A DNA stretch of 11,284 nt from IMG/VR virus record IMGVR_UViG_2663763286_000008. One strand, given 5' to 3'. This document shows positions 4,369-11,284 of this stretch, piece by piece; the first letter of the stretch is position 1; every line of letters begins with the position of its first letter. The DNA comes from a virus. Taxonomy: Duplodnaviria > Heunggongvirae > Uroviricota > Caudoviricetes. The position numbers and the translations under genes were made by a program. The notes under the pieces were generated by a model. That model was not told where the DNA came from, searched no databases, and saw only the letters and a program-made list of their open reading frames with translations.

Positions 4369-5517
4369 TCATGGCATAGCCATGAGCATTTTCACGTCCG
4401 CATCACCGTCTGCTGACGTCTGTGGCACGCCACCCTGTACCGCTGCCGGTGAATGGTTCGCCATGATGCGTTCAAACAGGGCGGTTGTGGATGCAGAGAC
4501 CGGTTCTGCCTTACCTGATCCCGCAGCCAGCACAGCCCGGGCGCTCTCCACAGTCATTCCCGGGCAGGCAGCCAGCTGTTCAGCCTGCGCCTCAGCCCCT
4601 TTTGCCTCATCCAGTGCCATGATCTGATCACGGAGTGAGGGTCCGGCATCCGCCTGCGGTGAAGCAGCCAGGATCGGGCGGGCTTTTTCCACCGTCATCT
4701 CCGGCATCGCCGCCTGACCTTCAAAAACGGCGGCCTCTGTTCCCGTGACGGCATCAACAGACAGACCGGTAAACATGGCCACTTTTTCGGCAAACATCCG
4801 GCGCGCCGCATCAATGCGCTGCTGCATGTCCTGGCGAACCTCTGCCGGTAAGGCTTCAAACTGATTGCCATCCACCTTGTGCGCCCCTGAGTAAATCAGC
4901 GTGATATCCACACCGGCCTGCGCCAGATGACCGGCATAGCTGACATGGCTCATCATCACGCCAATGGAGCCGATACGGGATGTCTGGGTAACCAGCCGTC
5001 GGGAGCAGGCCGACGCCAGCAGCATGGCTGCAGAACAGGCCGTGTCATTGCACAGTGCCCAGACCGGCTTCTGCTGACGGAGGCGGTAAATCATGTCAGC
5101 GCAGTCAAACGCGCCGGCGGCCTGCCCGCCCGGACTGTCAATGTCCAGCAGTACGCCCCGCACCTGGCTATCCGCCATTGCCTGCTGAAGACAGGCGACA
5201 ATGCCGTCATAGCCTGTCATTCCGGAAAATGGCCGCATACCCCCCAGCCGGTGCACCAGCGTGCCGGTCACCGGCAGTACAGCAATACCGTTCACCACCC
5301 GGTAAACACGGGCCGGTCGTTTACCTCCGGCCATGTACTCGTCCGTTTCAGCCAGCATTCCGGGAGCATCAAGCTGTACCTGCTGCTGTGGTACCGAAAG
5401 ACTTGCTGCCCCCATCTCGCGCCCGAGCGCGCAAAAGAAAACCCGCGCATAGGCGGGCTCCAGAAGCAGCGGTTCATTGAATGCTGCGGCAATAATGTGT
5501 GAAAGATTACGTCTCAC
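4369..5517 (-). CDS. C: head maturation protease / scaffold (lambda gpC homolog, ClpP/S49-like fold), probably with a nested Nu3-like scaffold reading frame
   Basis: The 382 aa product contains AFNEPLLLEPAYARVFFCAL, VLPVTGTLV, LLDIDSPGG, GAFDCADMI, KPVWAL, SRRLVTQTSRIGSIGVMM, ITLIYSGAHKVDGN and ETPGMTV, collinear with lambda gpC. It starts at a GTG with a GAGGAG ribosome-binding site and overlaps the end of B by 11 nt. Confidence 0.9.
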   Translation of the reverse strand: MRRNLSHIIAAAFNEPLLLEPAYARVFFCALGREMGAASLSVPQQQVQLDAPGMLAETDEYMAGGKRPARVYRVVNGIAVLPVTGTLVHRLGGMRPFSGMTGYDGIVACLQQAMADSQVRGVLLDIDSPGGQAAGAFDCADMIYRLRQQKPVWALCNDTACSAAMLLASACSRRLVTQTSRIGSIGVMMSHVSYAGHLAQAGVDITLIYSGAHKVDGNQFEALPAEVRQDMQQRIDAARRMFAEKVAMFTGLSVDAVTGTEAAVFEGQAAMPEMTVEKARPILAASPQADAGPSLRDQIMALDEAKGAEAQAEQLAACPGMTVESARAVLAAGSGKAEPVSASTTALFERIMANHSPAAVQGGVPQTSADGDADVKMLMAMP

Positions 5518-7302: not shown

Positions 7303-9214
7303 TCACTCCTCCGGACAGCTTCGCTGCCAGTTCTTTCAGGGTTGGCCGGGTCGTCTCTTCTTCCCGGGATTTTGCCAGTACAGCCAGATCAAGCTGCCAG
7401 CGTTGCACGGACACACGTAATGCCGCGTAGGCATACACCAGGCAGTCCAGCGCTTCGTTACGCCGCTTTTTGTTATCCCACAGCAGACGCATCTTTCCTT
7501 TTTCCCACTTCTCCACCAGCTCTTCCGCCACCAGTTGCTGCGCCTCTGTCTGCGAAAAAATCTCCGGATCATCAGGAAAACGGATGGCATACGACGTGGC
7601 TTCATCCGCAGGCGAGGGATCGGCTTTCATACGGGCATAGAGAATTTCTTTTGCGGTGTCCGTTCCCACTTCACACAGATACACGCCCCGCTGATTGCGG
7701 GTTTTTGGCATGGTGATCACCGGCTTGCCATAGACAGATGCGCCTTTTACCGGCAGCACCCGGAAAACACCGTGTTTTTTTGATCTCTGATAAACAATTT
7801 CACCATCGATCCCCCCGGTGTCCCAGCAGACACGGGAAATAGTCATTTCGGTGCCATCCGCATGGCGGTATTTTTTGTTGATCGCCGCATCCACACGTAA
7901 CAGCGTCTCTTCCTCATCAGGACGCCCCATAATGATGATTTTATCCACCAGAAAGGCTTCCTCTCCCGGAGCCCATCCCCAGACATACATCTCAAAACGG
8001 TTTCGCTGCGAGTCAATGCCCGCCGTCAGATAAACCACCCGGGCAGGCACCGCCGCCGTGTAACGCACCACCTTATCCATCAGTACCTGGTGATCGAGTT
8101 TTTCGCCCACGGCCTCTTCCCAGGTCTCGCCCAGCGTGGTGTTCACAAAGGTTTTCAGGCCGTTGGGATCTTTCAGTGCATCCAGCCAGTCATAGACAAT
8201 CTGTACCCAGGTGGTGAACGGACTGTACGCCGTCCAGATATGGAAAGTGATGGAGCGCGGCGGCGGAATTTCATCACCCCGGGCGCTGAAAAACGTCAGA
8301 CCGTCACGGGTCCACATGCCCGTGTTTTCACAGATCCACCGCCCGTTGCTCTGGTCCAGTTCAGACTGATGGATCACGCAGCCATGATGTTCACAGAGGT
8401 AGAAAACACTTTCAGGGCTGTCCTTCTCCCATTTAAGCCCAAAAGGCGTGGACTCATCGCCAAATTTCAGATACTGCTCCTCCCCACAGTGCGGGCAGGG
8501 CACATAAAAACGCATAAAATGCGCCGACTCGTTAGCGGCTTTTTCGATCTGGCAGGTGCCTTTGATTTTAGGCGTCGAGCCGCGAATGGATTTTGGCCAC
8601 ACCGACCCCTCAATACGCTTATCCCCCAGCAGGGTTGGCGAGCCCTCTTTTTCGACATCCGGCTCGAACGAGGAAAGTTCGTCATAGCAGACCACGTCCA
8701 CGGATTTTTCACGGTAGTTTTTGGCGGCAGCGCCGCCCAGGCACCAGAAACCGACGCCCGATGAAAAGCGTTTCAGCGTGAGAGTATTGTCACGATGTTT
8801 ACGACCCAGCCATGGGGAAAGGTCTTTCAGGCATGGCACGTTCCGAATCGTCGCCTCCACGTGAGACTTCATAAAATCTTCAGCGGCAGAATCCGTGGGC
8901 TGAAAAAGCAGACTGTTTCGGGATTTATGCTCAATAAAATACCCGACCACCCCCAGCAACATCTTTGTATAGCCAACACGGGCAGATTTAATCAGGTTAA
9001 CCGTGCGAACCTGGTCGTTACCCATACAGTTCATAATGGCGATCTGGAATGGCAGCGTTTTCCATTCTCCCTCACCGTATGAGGATTCTTTAGGCAGATA
9101 ATAATTTTGATCAGCCCATTCAACTGCCGTCATTGGTACAACCCTGACCAGAGGCTGCAGCGCAACCGAAACGGCAGCCATCATATTATTCAGTTGTTGC
9201 TCTGATATATTCAT
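7286..9214 (-). CDS. A: terminase large subunit (lambda gpA homolog)
   Basis: From the ATG at 9214 (MNISEQQLNN) the 642 aa product contains TAVEWAD.NYYLPKES, ARVGY.KMLLGV, KSVDV..YDEL, GDKRIEGSVWPKSIRGSTPK, HFMRF.V.CPHCGEEQYLKFGD.ETPFGLKW, HIWTAYSPFTTWVQIV and KKRRNEALDC.VYA.AALR, collinear with lambda gpA. The ORF track's longer TTG start at 9271 is rejected. Confidence 0.95.
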   Translation of the reverse strand: MNISEQQLNNMMAAVSVALQPLVRVVPMTAVEWADQNYYLPKESSYGEGEWKTLPFQIAIMNCMGNDQVRTVNLIKSARVGYTKMLLGVVGYFIEHKSRNSLLFQPTDSAAEDFMKSHVEATIRNVPCLKDLSPWLGRKHRDNTLTLKRFSSGVGFWCLGGAAAKNYREKSVDVVCYDELSSFEPDVEKEGSPTLLGDKRIEGSVWPKSIRGSTPKIKGTCQIEKAANESAHFMRFYVPCPHCGEEQYLKFGDESTPFGLKWEKDSPESVFYLCEHHGCVIHQSELDQSNGRWICENTGMWTRDGLTFFSARGDEIPPPRSITFHIWTAYSPFTTWVQIVYDWLDALKDPNGLKTFVNTTLGETWEEAVGEKLDHQVLMDKVVRYTAAVPARVVYLTAGIDSQRNRFEMYVWGWAPGEEAFLVDKIIIMGRPDEEETLLRVDAAINKKYRHADGTEMTISRVCWDTGGIDGEIVYQRSKKHGVFRVLPVKGASVYGKPVITMPKTRNQRGVYLCEVGTDTAKEILYARMKADPSPADEATSYAIRFPDDPEIFSQTEAQQLVAEELVEKWEKGKMRLLWDNKKRRNEALDCLVYAYAALRVSVQRWQLDLAVLAKSREEETTRPTLKELAAKLSGGVNGYSR

Positions 9215-9695
9215 CGAGTAAATCCGGTAATTTATCCCCTGCCCGCGCACACTGATTTGCCCCCTTCGCAATAAGGGTTTTCAGATGGTCAAGATGGCGC
9301 GGTGTTAAATCAGGAAACTGTCGCTGCATGGATAAAGGGATGGAATCAAGCGTACTGGATAACGCCATTGCCAGCTTACTGAGGGCAAAAATACAGAACC
9401 CGGTGTCAATAAGTTTTCCTTTTGACACCTCATTTTTTAACTGCTGTGTAACAGCCTGTTCTGCTGTCAGTTCCCATCTGGCAATAAGCAATTTCTCCTC
9501 ATAGTCGTCTTCGCTATCGCCATCAGGCACATCGTTTTTACTTCTCCTCAGATATGATATGTAAAAATCGCGCCAGGCATCCAGATCCAGTTGCCCTCGC
9601 TTATTCGATATCGGGGCACCCGGCAATTTCTGCAATCTGCGAAGCTGGCGATCGGTCAGACTTAAATGCCTGGCAACTTCAGTCTGCGTAGCCAC
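9186..9695 (-). CDS. nu1: terminase small subunit (Nu1-like) with a divergent N-terminal DNA-binding domain
   Basis: The C-terminal two thirds (IDTGFCIFALSKLAMALSSTLDSIPLSMQRQFPDLTPRHLDHLK...LLDEYI) resemble lambda Nu1, whereas the N-terminus (MATQTEVARHLSLTDRQLRRLQ, HTH-like) does not. It starts at a GTG with a GAGGTGAGGA ribosome-binding site, overlaps the start of A by 29 nt as in lambda, and sits directly downstream of cos. Confidence 0.85.
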   Translation of the reverse strand: MATQTEVARHLSLTDRQLRRLQKLPGAPISNKRGQLDLDAWRDFYISYLRRSKNDVPDGDSEDDYEEKLLIARWELTAEQAVTQQLKNEVSKGKLIDTGFCIFALSKLAMALSSTLDSIPLSMQRQFPDLTPRHLDHLKTLIAKGANQCARAGDKLPDLLDEYIRATTE

Positions 9696-9735: not shown

Positions 9736-9842
9736 AACCGGTCATGTCCGGTTTACATGTCTGTTTTTTGTTCATGTCCGGTTCACAGAAGACCTGTTTT
9801 TATATTTTTCATATAGTTAACTTGAAGAGAAACCGGACATGG
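9736..9842 (-). promoter_or_regulatory. cosB-like region: three copies of an 11 bp core (catgtccggtt) flanking an AT-rich tract; predicted terminase small-subunit and IHF binding sites
   Basis: The core occurs at 9743-9753 and 9773-9783 (plus orientation) and inverted at 9832-9842 (aaccggacatg). The first copy sits inside a longer palindrome, aaccggtcatgtccggtt. An AT-rich segment (9795-9830) lies between copies 2 and 3, mirroring the lambda R3-I1-R2-R1 layout. Confidence 0.65.
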
Positions 9843-9878
9843 ATCCCGGAAAATTTTCATAAATAGCGAAAACCCGCG

Positions 9879-9890
9879 AGGTCGCCGCCC
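9879..9890 (-). other. cosN cohesive-end sequence (minus strand GGGCGGCGACCT)
   Basis: The minus strand reads gggcggcgacctcgcgggttttcgctatttatgaaaattttccgg, identical to the lambda left end as I recall it. The other side (9891-9906, minus-strand read gatccgacaggttacg) matches the lambda right terminus. Confidence 0.85.
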
Positions 9891-10097: not shown

Positions 10098-10322
10098 ATG
10101 TCATCAAAGAACAGAACCCGCAGAACAACAACCCGCAACATCCGATTTCCAAACCAGATAATTGAACAAATTAACATCGCTCTTGACCTGAAAGGTTCAG
10201 GTAATTTTTCAGCGTGGGTTATTGAAGCCTGCAGAAGAAGATTAATTAATGAAAAATATTCTCAATTTGTACCCAACAAAGACAAACACGACCAGAGCAC
10301 CTGTTCAGACAGGTTTACTTAA
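10098..10322 (+). CDS. small DUF3950-family protein (YlcI/YnfO-like; homolog of the small ORF at the lambda right end), probable ribbon-helix-helix fold
   Basis: The 74 aa product MSSKNRTRRTTTRNIRFPNQIIEQINIALDLKGSGNFSAWVIEACRRRL has the YlcI/YnfO-type N-terminus I recall from lambdoid prophages. The pattern of a basic N-terminus, a short beta strand (NIRFP) and two helices resembles ribbon-helix-helix DNA binders. ATG start with a GGGG ribosome-binding site. Confidence 0.75.
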   Translation: MSSKNRTRRTTTRNIRFPNQIIEQINIALDLKGSGNFSAWVIEACRRRLINEKYSQFVPNKDKHDQSTCSDRFT

Positions 10323-10340
10323 ACGACTTATATATGACAC

Positions 10341-10367
10341 AAAAAGCGACCACTAAAGTCGCTTTTT
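10341..10367. terminator. bidirectional intrinsic terminator between the convergent DUF3950 and PerC-like genes
   Basis: aaaaagcgac cactaaa gtcgcttttt: a 6 bp GC-containing stem (agcgac/gtcgct) with a 7 nt loop, flanked by an A5 run on one side and a T5 run on the other, so it can act on transcripts from either strand. It lies 19 nt after the DUF3950 stop and 37 nt after the PerC-like stop. Confidence 0.65.
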
Positions 10368-10403
10368 CTTATGGTAACAGGCAATAACGCTCTCAGATAT
10401 TTT

Positions 10404-10718
10404 TTAGCATTTTTTTGACCGCGCGTTTCCGGACGTATTCTGTTCTCCTGTCCCTTTATATCGTCGGAATACCCGCCGCTCTTCAAATCCCATTCCCAAC
10501 TCAGAATGTAGTCTGTTGACCGCTTGTTTTATTTCGGTCAGGTTCACCGGTGAAACCGGAGTCCGGCGCGCCTTACGCAAACACTCTGCTCGTTTCTGTG
10601 CCGCCACTTTTCTTTTCTGGTCATCACTTAGCTGTACCATCACTTTTGCCCATCGTTCAGCTGCTCTCCGGTACAGTCCTTTTTTCTCCAGACATTCTGC
10701 CACGTGATCATGTAGCAT
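10404..10718 (-). CDS. PerC-family transcriptional regulator (Pch-like, PerC homolog)
   Basis: The 104 aa product MLHDHVAECLEKKGLYRRAAERWAKVMVQLSDDQKRKVAAQKRAECLRKARR carries the LEKKGL(W/Y)RRA..RWA..M motif that I recognise as the PerC/Pch signature. ATG start with a GGAGG ribosome-binding site 8 nt upstream. Low GC, in contrast to the flanking phage genes. Confidence 0.75.
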   Translation of the reverse strand: MLHDHVAECLEKKGLYRRAAERWAKVMVQLSDDQKRKVAAQKRAECLRKARRTPVSPVNLTEIKQAVNRLHSELGMGFEERRVFRRYKGTGEQNTSGNARSKKC

Positions 10719-10761
10719 AAGTGACCTCCGATTATCTACAGACTGCCATCCTGAATTTACC

Positions 10762-10856
10762 TTCCCTTAATGAAATAACAATAAAAAACAAACCACGCAA
10801 AAACAATAAAACAACACACAAAAAAAACTAAATAATAAACAAAAATAATCACCTTA
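10762..10856 (-). repeat. strand-asymmetric low-complexity tract (A/C-only on plus, T/G-only on minus) in the PerC-like gene's upstream region
   Basis: About 95 bp (aaataacaataaaaaacaaaccacgcaaaaacaataaaacaacacacaaaaaaaactaaataataaacaaaaataatcacc) contain almost no G and very little T on the plus strand. The tract lies about 45-140 bp upstream of the PerC-like start codon. Confidence 0.6.
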
Positions 10857-11183
10857 TTTTATTATTTTTTGAGGGAGCAATTACTGAACAAAAAACGCTG
10901 ACTATATACTCAAAACCAAACAACTATTCTGCCAATCAGGTATCATGGCAACACACGGAATTACCGTGTTTTTGCCTTCTCTGCCCATACAATACGGGCA
11001 TATACTTCATACTCTATTGTAATATTTCTATCCATGCGCCCCACTCCATTTACCTGTAAATAATATTCAAAATATTTATCACAGAAATCGTTTTTGGCCA
11101 TGAACTGAGCACACTATAAAGTCCGGAACTGACTCTTTGTTAAATTACTTTAACGTTACCAGTAACACCTTCATAACAAAACA

Positions 11184-11284
11184 TCACGGTATACACTGGG
11201 TACGGATATATTCCTGTGCTCCTTCCAGTTGCTTCTGCATTGCCATCAGCCGTTCTCTGAGGATGAAATAATCCCGTTCAGCGG
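11184..11284 (-). CDS. Rz: i-spanin Rz, 3' end only (gene starts beyond the window end)
   Basis: The minus-strand frame ending at 11184 reads ...AERDYFILRERLMAMQKQLEGAQEYIRTQCIP*, matching the lambda Rz C-terminus (AERDYFTLRERL..MQKQLEG.Q.YI..QC) as I recall it. Confidence 0.8.
   Translation of the reverse strand, partial: AERDYFILRERLMAMQKQLEGAQEYIRTQCIP
11246..11284 (-). CDS. Rz1: o-spanin Rz1, 3' end only, embedded in the +1 frame of Rz
   Basis: The alternative minus-strand frame reads ...PLNGIISSSENG*, matching the lambda Rz1 C-terminus (PLNGIISPSERG), with the typical nesting inside Rz. Confidence 0.75.
   Translation of the reverse strand, partial: PLNGIISSSENG

What the first reader, a model, noticed from the sequence alone, without database searches (positions are those of the whole stretch)
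10404..10718. PerC/Pch-family regulator gene in the position lambda uses for bor, between Rz/Rz1 and cos
Between the spanin genes and cos, lambda carries the lysogenic-conversion gene bor. Here that slot holds a 104 aa protein with the PerC-family signature (LEKKGLYRRAAERWA), transcribed in the late-gene direction, with its own ribosome-binding site and a terminator, in an AT-rich segment that contrasts with the GC-rich head genes. PerC homologues (Pch) in EHEC activate the LEE type III secretion regulon via ler. This is therefore a candidate prophage-borne virulence regulator whose expression could be coupled to late transcription or silenced by H-NS.
Basis: partly seen in the sequence, partly recalled or inferred. 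Interest (0 to 1): 0.6.

Follow-up and report, generated by a model that had tools for sequence, protein, structure and literature searches.

The report
Known EHEC virulence regulator gene pchA

Summary
The 104-aa ORF at 10404-10718 (minus strand) is real. It matches Pfam PerC (PF06069) over its full length (E 3.8e-44). It is 100% identical in protein and DNA to pchA (ECs_1091) of E. coli O157:H7 Sakai, one residue from PchB and two from PchC. RefSeq and UniRef already annotate this exact protein. The gene order Rz/Rz1, AT-rich spacer, pch, ylcI (opposite strand), cos, Nu1 is the same around pchB and pchC in Sakai prophages Sp11 and Sp14 and in O103:H2 prophages. The gene occurs in 673 of 5426 complete E. 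coli genomes, usually in three copies. That is close to the 697 genomes that carry ler. Published work shows that PchA/B/C activate the LEE1/ler promoter by displacing H-NS-type silencers, and that pchC (and, non-significantly, pchB) rises after SOS induction. Lambda bor is transcribed against the late genes, whereas pch runs with them. The slot also holds a DUF3950 (ylcI) gene. The terminator is a hairpin shared by the two convergent genes. Verdict: correct, ordinary, already known.

The parts
10404..10718 (-). pch coding sequence, 104 aa, identical to Sakai pchA
   Evidence: ORF and translation. Pfam PerC E 3.8e-44. 104/104 identity to ECs_1091, with the DNA identical across the gene.
10725..10729 (-). 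Shine-Dalgarno GGAGG, 6 nt upstream of the ATG
   Evidence: Read directly from the sequence; identical in Sakai Sp4.
10719..11183 (-). 465-nt AT-rich spacer between the Rz stop and the pch start. It is the presumed 5' region and promoter region, and a likely substrate for nucleoid proteins. It contains A/T-rich imperfect repeats at 10773-10849.
   Evidence: GC 0.32-0.35. Low-complexity repeats. No minus-strand terminator-like site here. One promoter-like site (10951-10923, minus strand), which is not above chance. Four SNPs against Sakai Sp4 over the 985 nt aligned (10300-11284), all in this spacer.
10341..10367 (.). A-tract/stem/T-tract hairpin between the convergent pch and ylcI genes; candidate bidirectional intrinsic terminator
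   Evidence: 11-bp stem; the 79-nt stretch containing it folds at MFE -17.3 kcal/mol (centroid, essentially the hairpin alone, -15.3), z -2.2. Not called by the consensus scan.
10098..10322 (+). YlcI/YnfO (DUF3950) gene, 74 aa, on the opposite strand to pch and the late genes
   Evidence: Pfam DUF3950 E 1.3e-17. NCBIfam YlcI_YnfO_N. Annotated in relatives.
11184..11284 (-). 3' end of the spanin gene Rz, cut by the window edge; the Rz1 3' end is embedded at 11246-11284
   Evidence: Translations. Positions of the annotated Rz/Rz1 in Sakai Sp4 and the O103:H2 prophage.
9846..9890 (-). Lambda-type cos (cosN cohesive end GGGCGGCGACCT and adjacent sequence)
   Evidence: Exact 45-nt match to a stretch recalled as the lambda left end (not compared with the lambda record), 0 expected by chance.
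9186..9695 (-). Terminase small subunit (Nu1), the first gene after cos
   Evidence: Pfam Phage_Nu1 E 1e-18; annotated in the relative.
10961..11101 (-). 46-aa ORF in the Rz-pch spacer, in the late direction; status uncertain
   Evidence: Full-length match to phrog_2157, E 2.3e-37. Not annotated in the RefSeq relatives. Both differences from Sakai inside it are non-synonymous.

Best explanation
This is an intact group-1 pch gene whose product is identical to PchA of E. coli O157:H7 Sakai. It is cargo of a lambda-like prophage and sits between the spanin genes and cos. Its product is a small helical protein of the PerC family. According to published experiments, it binds DNA at the LEE1 (ler) promoter and other horizontally acquired loci and displaces the H-NS/StpA/Hha silencing complex. 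This turns on ler and, through Ler, the LEE type III secretion system and associated effectors. In a lysogen it is presumably expressed from its own regulated promoter in the AT-rich spacer. Because it lies in the sense orientation inside the late operon (pR'-S-R-Rz-pch-cos-Nu1...), with no terminator-like site found on that strand between Rz and pch, it should also be transcribed when the prophage is induced. Shown here: the identity, the family membership, the intactness of the gene and the gene order. Taken from the literature: the activity of the identical protein. Inferred: the promoter location, late read-through, and that this particular host carries LEE.
For: The ORF is intact. Pfam PerC scores 149.3 bits against a 22.6 cut-off and covers profile positions 1-89 of 90. 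The protein is 104/104 identical to Sakai PchA, and the gene, RBS and downstream hairpin are identical at DNA level. It is 103/104 identical to PchB and 102/104 to PchC. The exact sequence is in the public collection, named 'PerC family transcriptional regulator' and 'PchABC family transcriptional regulator'. Relatives share the same Rz-pch-cos-Nu1 layout. The gene is in 673 of 5426 complete E. coli genomes with a median of 3 copies, and ler is in 697 of 5426. The best whole-window relatives are O103:H2 and similar strains, and several of them appear in the ler-positive sample (H125, H136, H137, H138). Literature: PchA/B/C each raise ler::lacZ at least 4-fold in K-12, while PchD and PchE do not (PMC5931665). 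Pch relieves H-NS/StpA/Hha silencing at LEE1 (PMC4764244). pchABC are needed for full LEE expression (reviewed in PMC4456613). No minus-strand terminator-like site lies between Rz and pch.
Against: The window holds no host chromosome, so the presence of LEE in this strain is only a statistical expectation. No promoter signal above chance was found upstream. Late read-through is inferred from gene order alone. The single-sequence AlphaFold model was of low confidence (pLDDT 51) and there is no solved relative, so the DNA-binding mode has no structural support here.
Confidence: 0.9

Rival explanations
1. The gene is intact, but in this host it is silent or irrelevant cargo. The strain may lack LEE, or other pch copies may dominate, so this copy contributes nothing to virulence regulation.
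For: The host is unknown. pch-positive genomes usually hold several copies (median 3). In strain PA20, pchC dominated expression after induction while pchA reads were low (PMC5931665). The prophage carries a 357-bp in-frame deletion in its protease/scaffold gene relative to its closest relatives and may be defective.
Against: The counts of pch-positive and ler-positive genomes nearly coincide (673 against 697 of 5426), and the sampled accessions overlap about as often as near-complete co-occurrence would predict. The coding sequence, RBS and proximal upstream region are identical to the functional Sakai pchA.
Confidence: 0.1
2. The primary role is for the phage. Pch would be a late-expressed anti-silencing factor that relieves H-NS repression of AT-rich phage or neighbouring prophage genes during lytic growth, and LEE activation would be a secondary, co-opted effect.
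For: The gene lies in the sense orientation inside the late operon with no terminator-like site before it. This position after Rz is conserved across prophages. The SNP-resolved increase after SOS induction was significant for pchC only; pchB rose without reaching significance (PMC5931665). Pch binds many chromosomal sites beyond LEE (PMC4764244, citing Abe 2008). PerC-like PHROG families are labelled phage transcriptional activators.
Against: No data show any effect of Pch on phage development. Group-1 pch tracks ler-positive genomes rather than lambdoid prophages in general: Rz-cos flanks occur in 4633 genomes but pch in only 673. This argues for selection through LEE.
Confidence: 0.08
3. 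It is an inactive short or degenerate PerC-like variant, of the PchD/PchE type or a pseudogene.
For: None found.
Against: The protein is full length at 104 aa, is identical to PchA, and covers the whole Pfam model. There is no frameshift or premature stop.
Confidence: 0.01

Closest known systems
PchA (ECs_1091, prophage Sp4, E. coli O157:H7 Sakai)
   Same: The protein is 104/104 identical. The coding DNA, RBS and downstream hairpin are identical, with only 4 SNPs over the 985 nt aligned (10300-11284), all in the Rz-pch spacer. Both lie directly after Rz/Rz1.
   Different: In Sakai Sp4 the holin-to-pchA block is inverted between IS629 and ISEc8 and so is disconnected from Q and from cos/Nu1. 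In the window the block keeps the native orientation: Rz, pch, ylcI, cos, Nu1.
PchB (ECs_2182, Sp11) and PchC (ECs_2737, Sp14) of Sakai
   Same: They share the intact genomic layout, with pch between Rz/Rz1 and the small terminase subunit and in the same direction. Both are 104 aa and belong to the same functional group 1.
   Different: One substitution (V6L) against PchB, and two (V6L, V58M) against PchC.
PerC of EPEC E2348/69 (plasmid pMAR2, perABC operon)
   Same: Same Pfam family. Both activate the LEE1/ler promoter according to the literature (PMC4764244 introduction; PMC4456613).
   Different: Only 47% identity over residues 2-88. PerC is 89 aa and lacks the basic C-terminal tail. It is plasmid-borne, downstream of perB, rather than on a prophage.
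PchD, PchE and K-12 YfdN (other PerC-family paralogues)
   Same: Same family, and also carried on prophages or prophage-like elements (PMC6265319, PMC5931665).
   Different: They are reported to have little or no ler-activating activity, and PchE instead represses curli and flagella (PMC5931665, PMC6265319, PMC7369912). Their sequences were not compared here.
Lambda bor (lysogenic-conversion moron between Rz and cos)
   Same: It occupies the same interval of the lambdoid map, between Rz/Rz1 and cos, and is accessory cargo that affects host-pathogen interaction.
   Different: bor is an outer-membrane lipoprotein gene on the strand opposite to late transcription (46459-46752, complement). pch is a cytoplasmic regulator gene co-directional with the late genes. 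There is no sequence relationship.

Membership tests
PerC family (Pfam PF06069) | Significant full-length match to the family profile, above the curated threshold | tested here: met
   149.3 bits against a 22.6 cut-off, E 3.8e-44, residues 1-89 on profile positions 1-89 of 90.
Group-1 Pch (PchA/B/C) of EHEC | A 104-aa protein nearly identical to Sakai PchA/B/C, differing only at the known variable positions (nt 16, 172, 183) | tested here: met
   100% identity to PchA, 99% to PchB (V6L) and 98% to PchC (V6L, V58M). The variable positions are as described in PMC5931665.
Group-1 Pch (PchA/B/C) of EHEC | Intact reading frame, with no truncation or frameshift | tested here: met
   ATG to stop, 104 codons; the DNA is identical to Sakai pchA.
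Group-1 Pch (PchA/B/C) of EHEC | Carried on a lambda-like prophage, downstream of the lysis cassette | tested here: met
   Rz/Rz1 tails, lambda-type cos, Nu1 and the head genes flank it. Sp11, Sp14 and the O103:H2 prophage have the same layout.
Group-1 Pch (PchA/B/C) of EHEC | Activates the LEE1/ler promoter by relieving H-NS-type silencing | not testable with these tools
   Shown experimentally for PchA of Sakai and PA20, to which this protein appears identical (PMC5931665, PMC4764244). Not measured for this locus.
Group-1 Pch (PchA/B/C) of EHEC | The host carries the target (LEE / ler) | not testable with these tools
   The window is all prophage. Indirect evidence: pch is in 673 and ler in 697 of 5426 genomes, and the nearest relatives of the window are ler-positive.
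Lambdoid 'moron' of the bor type | An autonomous unit (own promoter and terminator) in the Rz-cos interval | tested here: inconclusive
   The location is met. A hairpin terminator candidate is present but was missed by the consensus scan. The promoter-like site is not above chance.
Lambdoid 'moron' of the bor type | Transcribed against the late operon, as bor is | tested here: not met
   pch is on the same strand as Rz and Nu1, whereas bor is on the complement strand in lambda. The opposite-strand gene here is ylcI.

The most novel reading that the evidence does not exclude
Because pch lies in the sense orientation inside the late operon, with no terminator-like site found between Rz and pch, prophage induction itself would deliver a burst of Pch. 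This would couple lytic or SOS induction in a subpopulation to LEE/T3SS activation. More speculatively, Pch would serve the phage as a late anti-H-NS factor. In this picture the native-orientation copies (as here, and pchB/pchC) would be inducible, and the inverted Sakai Sp4 pchA would not.
Probability: 0.15. Interest if true: 0.4.

Novelty: already known. Interest (0 to 1): 0.1.

Why it matters
It marks the window as part of a lambda-like prophage of an attaching-and-effacing E. coli (EHEC or atypical EPEC type) that carries a master activator of the LEE type III secretion system. This is useful for annotation and for pathotype inference. The gene, its product, its activity and its prophage location have been described since 2004-2005 and are routinely annotated, so nothing new follows from it.

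Tried and rejected
1. NCBIfam has no model that hits the Pch protein; only Pfam and PHROGs do.

2. The phage GenBank collection holds just one tiny unannotated record with this protein, so it gave no context. The context came from the E. coli genomes instead.

3. The consensus promoter scan found one minus-strand candidate upstream (10951-10923). The region as a whole has fewer such sites than shuffled sequence (2 against 3.8), so no promoter can be claimed.

4. The consensus terminator scan did not call the post-pch hairpin, because its T-run is part of the stem. Folding shows the hairpin.

5. Single-sequence AlphaFold2 gave pLDDT 51 and pTM 0.33. That is too poor for a fold search, so none was run. 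I ran no further search on an alignment-based model because it could not change the verdict.

6. There is no solved structure for any relative.

7. A literature search for a mapped pchA promoter or transcription start site returned nothing usable in the open-access library. One further search failed on a term that was too short.

8. The truncated or inactive variant hypothesis was rejected.

Full report
**Observation.**
The window is the late region of a lambda-like prophage, read on the minus strand. The order is the 3' ends of Rz and Rz1 (stops at 11184 and 11246), then a 465-nt AT-rich spacer, then the ORF in question (10718 to 10404). After it come a 74-aa gene on the opposite strand (10098-10322) and a 45-nt exact match at 9846-9890 to the sequence I recalled as the lambda left end, which begins with the cohesive end GGGCGGCGACCT (not checked against the lambda record). 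These are followed by Nu1 (9695-9186), terminase A, W, portal, protease/scaffold, D, E, FI, FII, Z, U, V and the start of G.

- It encodes 104 codons plus a stop and begins MLHDHVAECLEKKGLYRRAAERWA.
- A GGAGG lies 6 nt before the ATG.
- GC content is 0.32-0.35 just upstream, 0.46-0.47 across the gene and 0.52-0.63 in the head genes.
- An 11-bp A-tract/T-tract hairpin at 10341-10367 lies 36 nt after the pch stop and 18 nt after the stop of the convergent gene (79-nt fold MFE -17.3, centroid hairpin -15.3 kcal/mol, z = -2.2).
- The simple terminator scan missed this hairpin, because the T-run is inside the stem.

**Identity.**
- The protein matches Pfam PerC (PF06069) end to end, with 149.3 bits against a gathering score of 22.6 and E 3.8e-44. 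It also matches PHROG families of PerC-like phage proteins.
- I fetched the three annotated group-1 pch genes of E. coli O157:H7 Sakai for comparison. The window protein is 104/104 identical to PchA (ECs_1091, prophage Sp4).
- It is 103/104 identical to PchB (ECs_2182, Sp11; V6L) and 102/104 identical to PchC (ECs_2737, Sp14; V6L and V58M).
- These are the variable positions (nt 16 and 172) that PMC5931665 uses to tell the three genes apart.
- At DNA level, 985 nt from the Rz tail to beyond the hairpin differ from Sakai Sp4 at only four positions. All four lie more than 290 nt upstream of the ATG.
- The exact protein is already in public databases as 'PerC family transcriptional regulator' and 'PchABC family transcriptional regulator', on at least 1000 contigs. 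RefSeq annotates it in every close relative.

**Context and distribution.**
- The order Rz/Rz1, pch, (ylcI), cos, Nu1 recurs in Sakai Sp11 and Sp14 and in an O103:H2 prophage.
- In Sakai Sp4 the holin-endolysin-Rz-pchA block is inverted between IS629 and ISEc8. It is therefore uncoupled from Q and from the head genes. The window has the native arrangement.
- The pch gene is present in 673 of 5426 complete E. coli genomes, almost always at 99% identity or more, with a median of three copies.
- The LEE master regulator gene ler is present in 697 of 5426 genomes.
- Only samples of each hit list are shown, but four accessions of the 40 shown for pch recur among the 60 shown for ler. About 3.4 would be expected if all pch genomes carry ler, and about 0.4 if the two were independent.
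- The best relatives of the whole window are O103:H2 and similar strains at 98-99% identity, and several of them appear in the ler-positive sample (H125, H136, H137, H138).
- The host of this window is therefore very probably LEE-positive, but the window itself cannot show it.

**Comparison with lambda.**
In lambda the Rz-cos interval holds bor (46459-46752, complement strand) and two predicted ORFs. However, bor is transcribed against the late operon, whereas pch runs with it.

**Mechanism.**
- Published experiments show that each of PchA, PchB and PchC raises a chromosomal ler::lacZ fusion at least 4-fold in K-12. PchD and PchE have little or no effect (PMC5931665).
- pchABC are required for full LEE expression and adherence (Iyoda and Watanabe 2004, as cited in PMC4456613 and PMC6265319).
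- Pch activates LEE1 only when the promoter is silenced by H-NS/StpA/Hha/YdgT. It reduces H-NS occupancy in vivo and in vitro without binding H-NS itself, and it co-activates Ler-dependent promoters (PMC4764244).
- pch expression is reported to respond to LrhA, Lrp/butyrate and LeuO (PMC4456613).
- Because the window protein is identical to Sakai PchA, which is the protein used in PMC4764244, these properties transfer directly.
- The rest is inferred. The gene lies in the sense orientation inside the late operon, and no minus-strand terminator-like site lies between Rz and pch. Q-modified transcription from pR' should therefore read through it.
- That inference fits the SNP-resolved RNA-seq of PMC5931665. 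After SOS induction pchC rose about 8-fold and pchB more than 3-fold (the latter not significant), while pchA did not rise. pchA is the copy that is inverted in Sakai Sp4. Linking these two facts is my inference, and strain PA20 may differ from Sakai.
- No promoter signal above chance was found upstream.
- The structural basis of DNA binding remains open. There is no solved relative. A single-sequence AlphaFold model was helical (four helices, residues 3-74, with a disordered basic tail) but of low confidence (pLDDT 51), so no fold search was done.

**Relation to other family members.**
EPEC PerC on pMAR2 is 47% identical over residues 2-88. It is shorter (89 aa), plasmid-borne and part of the perABC operon. 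More distant PerC-family genes occur on plasmids of E. albertii, Salmonella, Klebsiella and Pantoea.

**Verdict.**
The feature is a textbook EHEC/aEPEC virulence regulator gene that is already annotated and functionally characterised. Novelty: already known. Interest is low (0.1). The only mildly open point is how far expression of native-orientation pch copies is driven by prophage late transcription, which partly published data already suggest.

Noticed in passing
window 10098-10322 (+): A 74-aa YlcI/YnfO (DUF3950) gene lies between pch and cos, on the strand opposite to the late genes. It is convergent with pch and shares the hairpin at 10341-10367. It has the orientation that bor has in lambda, and its function is unknown. 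It is not annotated in the Sakai record at the equivalent place, but it is annotated in newer RefSeq records.
   Followed up: partly
window 10961-11101 (-): A 46-aa ORF in the Rz-pch spacer matches phrog_2157 over its full length (E 2.3e-37), but it is not annotated in the RefSeq relatives. The two differences from Sakai Sp4 inside it are both non-synonymous (R22H, Y31N), so whether it codes for a protein is unclear.
   Followed up: partly
window about 4713/4714, inside ORF 4369-5517 (-): The S49 prohead protease/scaffold gene (lambda C/Nu3 equivalent) is 382 aa here and 501 aa in the O103:H2 relative, with which it is otherwise 99% identical. This is a clean in-frame loss of 119 codons (357 bp), removing the end of the protease domain and the first scaffold-type repeats. 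At least one near-full-length relative spans 357 bp more (H72; only H72 was checked). The prophage may be defective in head assembly.
   Followed up: partly
window 9742-9757, 9772-9787 (+) and 9830-9841 (inverted): There are three copies of CATGTCCGGTT(T/C) between cosN and the Nu1 start, two direct copies 30 nt apart and one inverted. They are arranged like the R sites of cosB that bind the small terminase subunit, but with a sequence different from what I recall of lambda's R sites (not compared here). The lambda Nu1 profile matches only residues 49-150.
   Followed up: partly
window 10773-10849: A strongly strand-skewed, very AT-rich tract with imperfect 21-25-nt repeats (A-rich on the plus strand, T-rich on the pch sense strand) lies 55-130 nt upstream of the pch ATG. 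It is identical in Sakai Sp4. It could be curved DNA or a binding region for nucleoid proteins.
   Followed up: no
L002 (Sakai Sp4) 32131-39827: In Sakai Sp4 the holin-endolysin-Rz-pchA block is inverted between IS629 and ISEc8 relative to Q and the terminase genes, and Nu1 is truncated. This may explain why pchA, unlike pchC (and, non-significantly, pchB), did not rise after SOS induction in published RNA-seq.
   Followed up: partly
plasmid records H142-H146; 15 plasmid places: Identical or nearly identical group-1 Pch genes also occur on records classed as plasmids (59-439 kb). These may be phage-plasmids, or prophage-bearing large plasmids or chromids.
   Followed up: no
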